Source: a virus
Taxonomy: Duplodnaviria > Heunggongvirae > Uroviricota > Caudoviricetes
DNA length: 50,212 bases
Strand: one strand, 5' to 3'
Virus record (IMG/VR): IMGVR_UViG_2874945390_000009
Part shown: positions 12,001 through 15,000 of the stretch, piece by piece
Layout: the number at the start of each line of letters is the position of its first letter
Numbering within the stretch: position 1 is the stretch's first letter
Position numbers: made by a program

Positions 12001-15000
12001 CCAGTAGCGTTTGTTTTCATTCAGTTGTCGCTTCAGGCTCCCCTTCAGCACCTCCTCAGCCCTCCGGTAGTCCTCCGTCCCGTAAGTGCCTTTCTGGCGA
12101 CTGTCATTCTCAAGCTGTTGCAACTGTTGCCGGTATTCCTGCCGGATGCGCAACTGTGCCTGGTAGCGCTGCCGCTGCTTATCCCCCATACCTGCAGTGG
12201 CAATATCCAGATTGTGCTGCTCACGCAGTGCACGTTCTTTGTCTGCCAGCTGGCTGGTCAGCTGAACCGTTTTTTTTCTCAGGTCGTTAAGCGCTGTCTG
12301 TTTCTGCAGCTCCTGCTGTTTCACATCCAGCAGCGTCAGCGCCTGAATCAGCTCATTCTTACGGGCCAGCACACTCTTTTCATCTGCCGTCAGCTTTTTC
12401 CCGTCCAGGTCGCTGATGCGCTGCTGCAGGGCCAGAAGCTGTTTATGCGCTTCAGTCATCCTTTCAGTGGCAATGCCTGCTGCTGACTGTACTGCAGCAA
12501 TAACCGGGTGGCCTCATCATTACGGGTTGCCCGTGTATTTTTCTTAATGGCTTTTTCGTAACGTTCATTTTCACGCTGTATCGCCGCATCCCTGACAGCC
12601 TGGTCGGCGTACTGCATGGCATTAATACGCGCAATTTCCCGCTGATGTCGTGCAGCTTCCGTTTCATTCATCCGGTTCAGCGCGGCATTTTCAGCATTCC
12701 GGCGTTTCTGTTGCTCCTGGTAATTCCGTTCTGCCTGCGCTTTTGCATCCTGCAAATCCTTCCGGCGTTTTTTCTCCTGAAGATCGTTAAGACGCTGCTG
12801 ATCGTACTCCACCTGTGTGGAGGCGTTTGTCCACGGATATTTTTTCGCGCGCTGAATTTTTTCCTGTAACGCATCAATCTGCGCATCCAGCGAGTCTTCA
12901 CGACCAATATTCATGGCCGCATCCCAGAACTGCTTCCACCAGTCAGACAAGGTTTGCAGCGTACTACCCAGCGCATTGAGATTATTATCAATATCAGATG
13001 TGCGTTTACCAGTTTCCTCTGCCAGCGCAGACATGGCGATCCGGGCCGCATCACTGGACCGCCCCAGCTCCCCAAGGACGCGTATCTGCTCAAGCTGAGT
13101 GGCAGTCAAAAAATGCAGCGCATTGTCCAGCGCCTTCGCGGCATTTACAGGATCATCCTTCAGCCGCTTAAACTGATTTATGGTATCGCTGACCGACTGG
13201 CCAACCGATCGCTCCATCTGTGCGGCAGCTTTCGCCACCATACCAATATCGTTTCCATGAAATGCCCCACTGCCCACCACCTGTGCCAGCGCACCGGCTG
13301 CCGCATGTTGCGTGATACCATTCCCGGATATGGCCCGGCTGAGTTTCCACAACTGCCCGACAGTGACACCGGCATAATGTCCCGTCAGCGCCAGCTGACG
13401 GTTAAATTCCTCGCCCTCCTTCCGGCCGTCATGCCAGGCTTTACCCAGACCCAGGACCGCCGCGACAAGTCCGCCAATAACGCCGCCAGTCATCATGCCT
13501 TTCGGCGACATCAGTGCGCCTGTCCATCCGGCACGGTTAGCCAGCGTTATCCCGGATCCCCTCAGCGCACCAAAATTGCCGCGCGCCATCTGACTGATTA
13601 ACACCCCCAGCTCCCGCCGGGCTGCCGCACTTTTCAGCCCCAGCGAATGTGTGGCTTTTCCTGCCCGCTCCATTTTGCGGATATACACTTCTGCAGCACT
13701 GCTTACCCCCAGCTGAGCCGCCCTGGCGCGAAGCAACTCAGAAGACGACAGATTCTGGCGGGTTGCCTGCTCTTTAAGCTGGCGGATAAACGCCGCTTTC
13801 TGCCGGGTGGCCTGTTCCTCTGCCTGCGTCAGGGCACGGGTTTTCGCCGTGATCTCCGAAATCAGCGCCAGATAATCCTGCTGACCAACCCCGCCACTGT
13901 TTCTGGCCTGTCGGATCTGCTGCTGAATACGCTGTAATTCCTGAAGCCCCGCACCGGCCTGTTTCACACTGTCAATCTGGCGATAAAAGGCGGCAGCCGC
14001 TTTATCCTGCGCCTCCGCCAGTGCCCTGGCCTGCGCCTGTTCCTCGCGCATTTTCTGATTCAGGGCATCCACGCGCAGACGGGTTTGTTCCACCTCACGG
14101 GCCATGCGTTCATGAGCCCGTGCGTTCTTTTCCACCGTCTGCGCATGGGCTGATGCTGCTGTTGCAGCCGAAGAAGCCGCCTGCATTGTCTGCCGGGCCG
14201 CCTGAGTCTGACGCTCCATAAAACGCTGCATACGGGCAGAAGACCGTTCTGCATCGCTGGCTGCACCATTCAGAAGGTTTTTGATACGGGGAATTTCATT
14301 TTTAAACTCTGCCGCATCAATCCCCAAATCAATGACCAGGTTGGCTATCTGGTCCATAACGCACACCTCCGGAAATACCTTCCCCAAGATGCATCAGTTC
14401 TTCGTCCGTTCGCTCCGGTATCCCGTTCTCTTCCGGTAAAAGGCTGAAATCAGCCACCGCAGCATCACTGCTGCCGGACACCATTCTCACGATCAATGCC
14501 TTCAGCGAGGCAAACTGCGCATCCATCCACACATCACTGAAGCTCTGCATCCGGAAATAATCGCCCCACTCACCAAGCTCAGTGGCCGACATTTCCGACA
14601 GCATCCGCCGCCAGTCTGCCCGCCGGAACTCCCGGGCAAGCCGCATGACAAACTGCATTTCCCGCGTCAGGACTTTTCCGGCGTCAGCGCCTCATGATCA
14701 TCATCCCCGGCATTCTCAATGGTCCCCATACCGCTCAGCGACAGAACCCTCTCCGCCCCCGCGCCCAGCGCATCATACGACCATGTTGTCATAATGGATG
14801 CGCAAAGCGTCTCAACATCCTGAGACTGCTCAGCATTCCACAGTGAGCGGGAAACCAGCCAGGCATTGATATCCATTCCCATACGCAGAAAAGCAATCTG
14901 TCGTTCAGCCTCCGGCAGTTCTCCCTCCTGTGCATCAAACTTTGCCGTTCGCTGCTGAACAAACGTCAGATATTCAATTCTCTGCAGCCCGGACAGCTCA

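What the first reader, a model, noticed from the sequence alone, without database searches (positions are those of the whole stretch)
12440..12475. Tape measure gene split into two frames with a 4-nt overlap
The two parts total about 1009 aa and meet at …ggaTGActgaag…, where the stop of the first part overlaps the ATG of the second. A tail with a broken tape measure cannot assemble normally. This could be decay, but it mimics a coupled two-gene junction, so it should be verified.
Basis: seen in the sequence. Interest (0 to 1): 0.4.

Follow-up and report, generated by a model that had tools for sequence, protein, structure and literature searches.

The report
Broken tape measure gene, decaying prophage
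The tail "tape measure" gene of a lambda-like prophage in Shigella boydii was broken by a 43-base deletion between two short repeats; it is an ordinary pseudogene in a prophage with at least four other disabling mutations.

Summary
On the minus strand, a 633-aa ORF (14357..12456) and a 366-aa ORF (12459..11359) meet at GGATGACTGAAG with a 4-nt ATGA overlap. Together they make up a lambda gpH-type tape measure gene lying between the T and M genes.

The cause is a 43-nt deletion at window 12474-12483. In intact relatives the deleted segment is flanked by a 9-bp direct repeat (CAGCAGGCA). The closest intact copy, E. coli FDAARGOS_943 (3042 nt, 1013 aa), differs otherwise by only 5 substitutions. 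Isolated phages mEp460, Tritos and cdtI (about 89% identity) each carry a single ORF of 1021 aa.

The ATG is the native internal Met648 codon, and GGATGAC is already present in the intact genes. The coupled-gene look is therefore accidental. In a simulation, 12.7% of random 43-nt deletions gave a 4-nt overlap.

The junction recurs in independent assemblies, so it is not an artefact. The same prophage also carries:
- a nonsense codon in the terS-like gene
- an IS66-family insertion in a tail gene
- frameshifts in the dnaB-like and tail-fibre genes
- IS600 and IS1 copies

Verdict: recent pseudogenisation by slippage in a decaying, ipaH-carrying Shigella prophage. Low interest.

The parts
12456..14357 (-). 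N-terminal fragment of the tape measure pseudogene: 633 codons, made of native residues 1-628 plus 5 out-of-frame residues (LPLKG), then TGA
   Evidence: Translation. Pfam TMP_2 at residues 228-426. The start is homologous to the annotated starts in mEp460 and FDAARGOS_943. A 633-aa gene was called in the source assembly.
11359..12459 (-). C-terminal fragment of the tape measure pseudogene: 366 codons, starting at the native internal Met648
   Evidence: Translation. Pfam Tape_meas_lam_C at 161-235. TMP_4 matches only profile positions 29-72 of 77, at residues 1-43. Identical in frame to residues 648-1013 of the intact relative.
12474..12482 (-). Deletion scar: the single retained copy of the 9-bp repeat CAGCAGGCA. 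43 nt are missing here relative to intact relatives.
   Evidence: Alignments with mEp460 and Tritos and with FDAARGOS_943, CFSAN029787 and FDAARGOS_944.
12456..12459 (-). ATGA overlap: TGA stop of the shifted upstream frame over the native Met648 codon. Already present, unchanged, in intact genes.
   Evidence: Chance estimate.
14329..14658 (-). Tail assembly protein T ORF, the −1 frame partner of G. Intact and 100% identical to the relative.
   Evidence: Pfam Phage_tail_T.
14667..15053 (-). Tail assembly chaperone G, intact
   Evidence: Pfam Phage_TAC_2.
11030..11359 (-). gpM-like minor tail protein, intact, immediately downstream of the tape measure gene
   Evidence: Pfam Phage_min_tail.
16316..19075 (-). 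IS66-family element (ISSfl3-like) inserted in the gpZ-like tail gene, with an 8-bp target duplication GCTGTTTC. A second tail-gene lesion in the same prophage.
   Evidence: Gene calls with IS66 Pfam families.
26123..26617 (-). terS-like (DUF1441) gene with a TTA>TAA nonsense at codon 5 (window 26604)

Best explanation
This is a recently inactivated tape measure gene, a pseudogene, in a decaying lambda-like prophage of Shigella boydii that carries ipaH. A 43-nt segment was lost between two copies of a 9-bp direct repeat (CAGCAGGCA, 43 nt apart in the intact gene). That is the signature of replication slippage or microhomology-mediated deletion. 43 = 3x14 + 1, so the reading frame shifts. Five out-of-frame codons follow, then a TGA that happens to overlap the native Met648 codon. 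The remaining native frame therefore shows up as a second ORF beginning at that ATG. Residues 629-647, inside the conserved TMP_4 domain, are encoded by neither fragment. Shown here: the deletion, its repeat context, its occurrence in independent assemblies, intact single-ORF relatives, and four other disabling lesions in the same prophage. Inferred: the slippage mechanism, and that neither fragment can build a functional tail. The tail inference rests on two published results: the tube polymerises around one continuous tape measure anchored by its C-terminus in the tip, and both termini are needed for infectivity.
For: (1) The closest intact relative, FDAARGOS_943, has a 3042-nt (1013-aa) tape measure gene that differs from the window only by 5 substitutions and the 43-nt gap.
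(2) The repeat CAGCAGGCA flanks the missing segment in all intact copies, and one copy is retained in the window.
(3) Isolated phages mEp460, Tritos, cdtI, Ayreon and others have a single ORF of 1021 aa.
(4) GGATGAC pre-exists in intact genes, with ATG in frame as Met648. A 4-nt overlap is the commonest outcome of random 43-nt deletions, at 12.7%.
(5) The break lies inside Pfam TMP_4, which spans residues 613-690 of the intact protein and is only partially matched in the C fragment.
(6) The same junction is found in the complete S. boydii chromosome CP026836.1, in a Logan contig seen in 11 samples, and in another run.
(7) PGAP labels the sister allele, a 46-nt deletion at the same spot, as a 'frameshifted' pseudogene. 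Another near-identical copy has an internal stop at codon 699.
(8) The same prophage has a terS-like nonsense codon, an IS66-family insertion in the gpZ-like gene, dnaB-like and tail-fibre frameshifts, and IS600 and IS1 copies.
(9) Literature: the lambda gpV tube wraps the gpH oligomer, whose C-terminal helix sits in the tip (PMC10721106). The TP901-1 tape measure needs both its N-terminal 154 aa and its C-terminal 60 aa (PMC5099701). Shigella genomes are prone to IS-driven pseudogenisation (PMC8072062).
Against: No expression or virion data exist for this strain. The ATGA overlap could allow some termination-reinitiation, so the C fragment may still be made. The deletion allele persists in several isolates. 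That is expected for a neutral lesion in a clonal lineage, but it does not by itself prove loss of function.
Confidence: 0.93

Rival explanations
1. Sequencing or assembly artefact: the gene is intact in the real genome and the 43-nt gap is an assembly error.
For: The window has another frameshift, in a run of eight G in the dnaB-like gene, that could be a homopolymer error. So this assembly is not necessarily error-free.
Against: A 43-nt loss bounded by direct repeats is not a typical base-calling error. The identical junction occurs in independently assembled sequencing runs (a Logan ERR5888630 contig seen in 11 samples, and ERR13731114) and in the complete chromosome. A related 46-nt deletion allele is present in many other assemblies.
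Confidence: 0.02
2. A functional split tape measure: two translationally coupled genes (ATGA overlap) whose products together, or the C fragment alone, still build a tail.
For: The ATGA overlap is the classical geometry for termination-reinitiation. The C fragment retains Tape_meas_lam_C and the C-terminus that anchors in the tip (PMC10721106).
Against: The split is not conserved. Functional phages and near-identical prophages have one ORF. With only 5 substitutions separating the window from an intact copy, there has been no time for adaptation. GGATGAC pre-exists in intact genes. The AGGA abuts the ATG, which is too close for a normal Shine-Dalgarno spacing (sequence; the spacing rule is from general knowledge). 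19 residues of a conserved domain are lost. Both termini on one chain are needed in TP901-1. The prophage cannot make virions anyway, given the terS nonsense and the IS in the gpZ-like gene.
Confidence: 0.03
3. Programmed −1 ribosomal frameshifting between the scar and the stop restores a near full-length (about 998 aa) tape measure.
For: ORF2 is in the −1 frame relative to ORF1, and the phage already uses a −1 shift in G-T just upstream.
Against: The 25 nt between scar and stop (CAG CAG GCA TTG CCA CTG AAA GGA TGA) contain no X XXY YYZ slippery heptamer (read directly). The arrangement arose from a very recent deletion and is absent from functional relatives.
Confidence: 0.01

Closest known systems
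Tape measure protein of lambdoid phages mEp460, cdtI and Tritos, and of the ipaH-associated prophage in E. coli FDAARGOS_943 / CFSAN029787 (gpH-type, 1013-1021 aa)
   Same: Same gene order (V, G, T, tape measure, M, L, K, I, J). Same Pfam domains (TMP_2, TMP_4, Tape_meas_lam_C). About 89% nucleotide identity to the phages. Only 5 substitutions apart from the 43-nt deletion relative to FDAARGOS_943, whose 3.4-kb match was 99.7% identical.
   Different: The window copy lacks 43 nt and is therefore split into 633-aa and 366-aa ORFs. Relative to mEp460 there are also two in-frame length differences of 9 and 15 nt, which the intact FDAARGOS_943 copy shares.
The 'frameshifted' tape measure pseudogene of E. 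coli O121 strain 201805972 (NZ_CP119441.1) and several draft assemblies
   Same: Deletion at the same repeat cluster, the same frame shift (46 = 3x15 + 1), the same TGA stop, and the same 366-aa downstream ORF.
   Different: That deletion is 46 nt between 11-bp repeats (ACAGTCAGCAG), not 43 nt between 9-bp repeats. It sits on a different haplotype: 4 private substitutions there, 6 private to the window, and none shared exclusively. It is probably an independent event.
Lambda gpH (853 aa)
   Same: Same position and role in the tail module. The C-terminal Tape_meas_lam_C domain is shared. The gene end and the M/L region are about 93% identical at the DNA level.
   Different: Most of the gene is not alignable at the DNA level with lambda H. 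The intact homologue here is 160 aa longer.

Membership tests
Lambda-type tail tape measure protein (gpH-like) | Characteristic domains (TMP_2, TMP_4, Tape_meas_lam_C) | tested here: met
   Pfam hits above the gathering score on the two fragments and on the intact relative.
Lambda-type tail tape measure protein (gpH-like) | Gene located between the G/T chaperone genes and gpM/gpL | tested here: met
Lambda-type tail tape measure protein (gpH-like) | One uninterrupted reading frame spanning N- and C-terminal regions | tested here: not met
   The frame is broken at 12456-12483. The window therefore holds a pseudogene of this family, not a functional member.
Translationally coupled two-gene junction | Two-ORF arrangement conserved in functional relatives | tested here: not met
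   Isolated phages and near-identical prophages have a single ORF.
Translationally coupled two-gene junction | Overlap motif arose or is maintained as a junction, rather than being incidental | tested here: not met
   GGATGAC is already present inside intact genes. Random deletions give a 4-nt overlap 12.7% of the time.
Translationally coupled two-gene junction | Both products made and required | not testable with these tools
   Needs proteomics or genetics.
Programmed −1 ribosomal frameshift site | Slippery heptamer X XXY YYZ in the overlap region | tested here: not met
   None found in the 25 nt between scar and stop, read.
Deletion by slipped-strand mispairing / microhomology | The deleted segment in intact relatives is bounded by direct repeats, and one copy is retained in the mutant | tested here: met
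   9-bp CAGCAGGCA repeats 43 nt apart, one copy retained at 12474-12482.
Defective (cryptic) prophage | Multiple inactivating lesions in genes essential for virion production or replication | tested here: met
   terS-like nonsense, IS66-family element in the gpZ-like gene, tape measure deletion, tail-fibre and dnaB-like frameshifts, IS600 x2, and an IS1 fragment next to the integrase.

The most novel reading that the evidence does not exclude
The overlapping repeats ACAGTCAGCAG / CAGCAGGCA inside the TMP_4 domain are a recurrent deletion hotspot that repeatedly and independently kills this prophage's tail in Shigella/EIEC lineages. Alternatively, or in addition, the N- and C-terminal fragments are both translated through ATGA termination-reinitiation and retained for some host-beneficial role.
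Probability: 0.04. Interest if true: 0.35.

Novelty: already known. Interest (0 to 1): 0.07.

Why it matters
It matters little beyond correct annotation. The two ORFs should be annotated as one frameshifted tape measure pseudogene, and the prophage as defective. This is a cargo-retaining remnant: ipaH sits at one end of a phage whose replication, packaging and tail genes are broken. The one mildly useful point is that two different deletions (43 and 46 nt) occur at the same repeat cluster on different haplotypes. That makes a small, clean example of a slippage hotspot, and a possible lineage marker for S. boydii / EIEC typing.

Tried and rejected
(1) An exact-pattern scan of genome contigs for the junction found nothing. 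That collection holds one genome per GTDB species, and I assume (not checked) that Shigella falls under E. coli there, so the scan says nothing about how common the allele is. The exact-protein look-up did the job instead.

(2) I tested whether the 43- and 46-nt alleles are one event followed by gain or loss of a CAG. Haplotype comparison showed no shared derived substitution. This favours two events, but a single event cannot be excluded.

(3) I looked for a recoding signal by reading the 25 nt between scar and stop. No slippery heptamer is present.

(4) Xu et al. 2014 (PMC3907469), on gpG/gpGT-gpH interactions, is not held in the library.

(6) Heavy protein-database, structure-prediction and RNA tools were not used, because DNA-level comparison with near-identical relatives was already decisive.

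Full report
**Observation.** The genes in this part of the window lie on the minus strand. The + strand at 12450-12461 reads cttcagtcatcc, which is ggATGActgaag on the coding strand. The ORF listing reports 12456..14387 (643 aa from a TTG) and 11359..12459 (366 aa from an ATG), overlapping by 4 nt at 12456-12459. The homologous, annotated start of relatives corresponds to the ATG at 14357, so the first part is really 633 aa. The N part hits Pfam TMP_2. The C part hits Tape_meas_lam_C and a truncated TMP_4 (profile positions 29-72 of 77). The neighbours are G (Phage_TAC_2), T (Phage_tail_T) and a gpM-like protein. In detail: this is a lambda gpH-type tape measure gene in two frames.

**What broke it.** Megablast against phage genomes found 17 records covering at least 80% of the region at about 89% identity. 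They include the isolated phages mEp460, Tritos, cdtI, Ayreon and HannyBb. In mEp460 and Tritos the tape measure is one ORF of 3066 nt, or 1021 aa. Alignment shows three gaps in the window relative to these phages: 9, 43 and 15 nt. Only the 43-nt gap shifts the frame.

Much closer relatives exist in complete E. coli genomes. FDAARGOS_943, CFSAN029787, FDAARGOS_944 and others are about 99.7% identical and carry an intact gene of 3042 nt, or 1013 aa. Against FDAARGOS_943, the window gene differs by 5 substitutions plus the 43-nt gap, and nothing else.

In the intact sequence the segment reads ...GTACAGTCAGCAGCAGGCA|CAGGTG...CAGACAGTCAGCAGGCA|TTGCC.... The 9-mer CAGCAGGCA occurs twice, 43 nt apart, and the window keeps exactly one copy, at 12474-12482. 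This is the textbook signature of deletion by slipped-strand mispairing or microhomology. The mechanism itself is inferred.

**Consequences for the reading frame.**
- The deletion removes codons 629-642 and one base of codon 643.
- The upstream frame then reads TTG CCA CTG AAA GGA TGA (LPLKG, stop).
- The TGA overlaps ATG, the native in-frame codon for Met648 of the intact protein (...GIATERMTEAHK...).
- GGATGAC is present unchanged in every intact relative examined, so the deletion neither created nor selected the ATGA overlap.
- Residues 629-647 are encoded by neither fragment. They lie within the TMP_4 domain, residues 613-690 of the intact protein.

**Is the coupled-gene look more than chance?** I simulated a 43-nt deletion at every position of the intact gene and applied the same mechanical ORF definition. 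A 4-nt overlap was the single most frequent outcome (372 of 2921 positions, 12.7%). ATGA specifically occurred in 4.0%. Two other frameshifted genes in this same window also show 4-nt overlaps: ATGA at 33955-33958 and GTGA at 3704-3707. This shows how readily the pattern arises.

**Is it real?** The exact 366-aa product is encoded on a complete 5.1-Mb chromosome, CP026836.1 (GCA_002950135.1). A 13.1-kb stretch of that chromosome is identical to the window, and NCBI labels the protein as Shigella boydii. The same 43-nt junction is also present in a Logan assembly contig of ERR5888630 (seen in 11 samples, 1 mismatch in 3865 nt) and in ERR13731114. An assembly artefact is therefore very unlikely.

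**A second allele at the same spot.** E. coli O121 strain 201805972 and several draft assemblies carry a 46-nt deletion, between 11-bp repeats ACAGTCAGCAG, at the same place. It gives the same stop and the same 366-aa downstream ORF. PGAP annotates it as a 'frameshifted' pseudogene. The two deletion alleles sit on different haplotypes with no exclusively shared substitution. This favours two independent events at a small repeat hotspot, though one event followed by CAG gain or loss is not excluded. A further near-identical copy (RMDEC465) has an internal stop at codon 699. This gene is evidently decaying in several lineages.

**Context: a defective prophage.** The window spans a lambdoid prophage, running from an ipaH-type NEL E3-ligase gene (1137-2600) through the tail, head, lysis, Q, replication and CI genes to an integrase. 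Gene-by-gene comparison with the FDAARGOS_943 prophage shows these lesions besides the tape measure deletion:
- A TTA>TAA nonsense at codon 5 of the terS-like DUF1441 gene (window 26604).
- A 2.76-kb IS66-family (ISSfl3-like) element inserted in the gpZ-like tail gene (16316-19075), with an 8-bp target duplication GCTGTTTC.
- A 1-nt deletion in the dnaB-like helicase gene (about 33966).
- A 4-nt deletion in the tail-fibre gene (about 3718).
- Two IS600 copies (42318-43581 and 46456-47720) and an IS1 fragment abutting the integrase ORF.

Shigella genomes are known for IS expansion and pseudogenisation (PMC8072062). A broken tape measure is one more lesion in a phage that can no longer replicate, package or build tails.

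**Functional inference.** In lambda, the gpV tube polymerises around a gpH oligomer that sets tail length, and the gpH C-terminal helix (residues 818-842) sits in the tip on a gpI tripod (PMC10721106). In TP901-1, infectivity needs both the N-terminal 154 aa and the C-terminal 60 aa of the tape measure (PMC5099701). Neither fragment here has both ends. If the C fragment were made by reinitiation, it could at best nucleate short, non-infectious tails. This is inference and was not tested. The AGGA immediately abuts the ATG, which is poor spacing for de novo initiation. No X XXY YYZ heptamer lies between scar and stop, so programmed rescue is unlikely.

**Comparison and verdict.** The locus is a pseudogene of the lambda-type tape measure family. 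It is not a coupled gene pair, because functional relatives do not share the two-ORF arrangement, and it shows no recoding signal. This kind of lesion in this kind of element is well known, and NCBI's pipeline already labels the sister allele as frameshifted. Interest is low. The only small extra is the apparent recurrence of deletions at the same repeat cluster.

Noticed in passing
window 16316-19075 (minus strand): An IS66-family (ISSfl3-like) element is inserted near the 3' end of the gpZ-like tail gene, with an 8-bp target duplication GCTGTTTC and GTAAGCG... terminal repeats. Its own transposase is split into 334-aa and 187-aa ORFs (16908..17912 and 16348..16911).
   Followed up: partly
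window 26123-26617 (minus), position 26604: The terS-like DUF1441 gene has a single substitution, TTA>TAA, at codon 5. This is the only difference from the FDAARGOS_943 copy across 495 nt.
   Followed up: yes
window 33386-34776 (minus), about 33966: The dnaB-like replicative helicase gene is split (273 aa + 190 aa) by a 1-nt deletion next to a run of eight G. The fragments again overlap by ATGA (33955-33958). This could be a homopolymer sequencing error rather than a real mutation.
   Followed up: partly
window 3354-4807 (minus), about 3718: The tail-fibre N-terminal-domain gene is frameshifted by a 4-nt deletion, and also carries a 3-nt insertion at about 3876-3878, relative to FDAARGOS_943. 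The fragments overlap by GTGA at 3704-3707.
   Followed up: partly
window 1137-2600 (+): An ipaH-type effector gene (LRR + NEL E3 ligase domain) sits at the tail-fibre end of the prophage. Only its 3' 948 nt match the (frameshifted) ipaHe of FDAARGOS_943, so the LRR part differs or the gene is 5'-truncated.
   Followed up: no
window 42318-43581 (minus) and 46456-47720 (+): Two IS600 copies in inverted orientation flank about 2.9 kb carrying SPFH/Band 7, DUF5406 and DUF4222 genes in the prophage early region. This could be a composite structure or the product of an inversion.
   Followed up: no
window 48724-50212 (+): An IS1 transposase fragment (profile positions 26-131 of 131) ends 2 nt before the ORF holding the phage integrase domain. 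The integrase gene may be 5'-truncated by IS1.
   Followed up: no
window 14655-14690 (minus): The G gene ends ...CCG GAA AAG TCC TGA and the T ORF lies in the −1 frame, as in the lambda G/GT programmed frameshift. The likely slip site, GGAAAAG, differs from lambda's GGGAAAG (lambda motif recalled from memory). It is 100% identical in the intact relative.
   Followed up: no
L003 (ON470578.1, phage vB_EcoS-606R10, partial genome), locus 844-3920: This phage record also has its tape measure annotated as two CDS, but the break is elsewhere: an 11-nt insertion at alignment columns 941-951. It is either an assembly error or a different defective allele.
   Followed up: partly
query 2078-2227 of window:11000-14700 (minus), i.e. 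window about 12474-12623: A 150-nt stretch adjoining the deletion scar, on the N-terminal-fragment side, matches Aeromonas phage AP1 (MT713136.1, 254 kb) at 88.7% identity in an unannotated region. This is an odd isolated hit in an unrelated jumbo phage.
   Followed up: no
L011 (NZ_CM177019.1, E. coli RMDEC465), locus 544-3585: A near-identical tape measure gene with the 43 nt intact has an internal stop at codon 699 and a cluster of substitutions at gene positions 836-906. This is independent decay, possibly with a recombination patch.
   Followed up: partly
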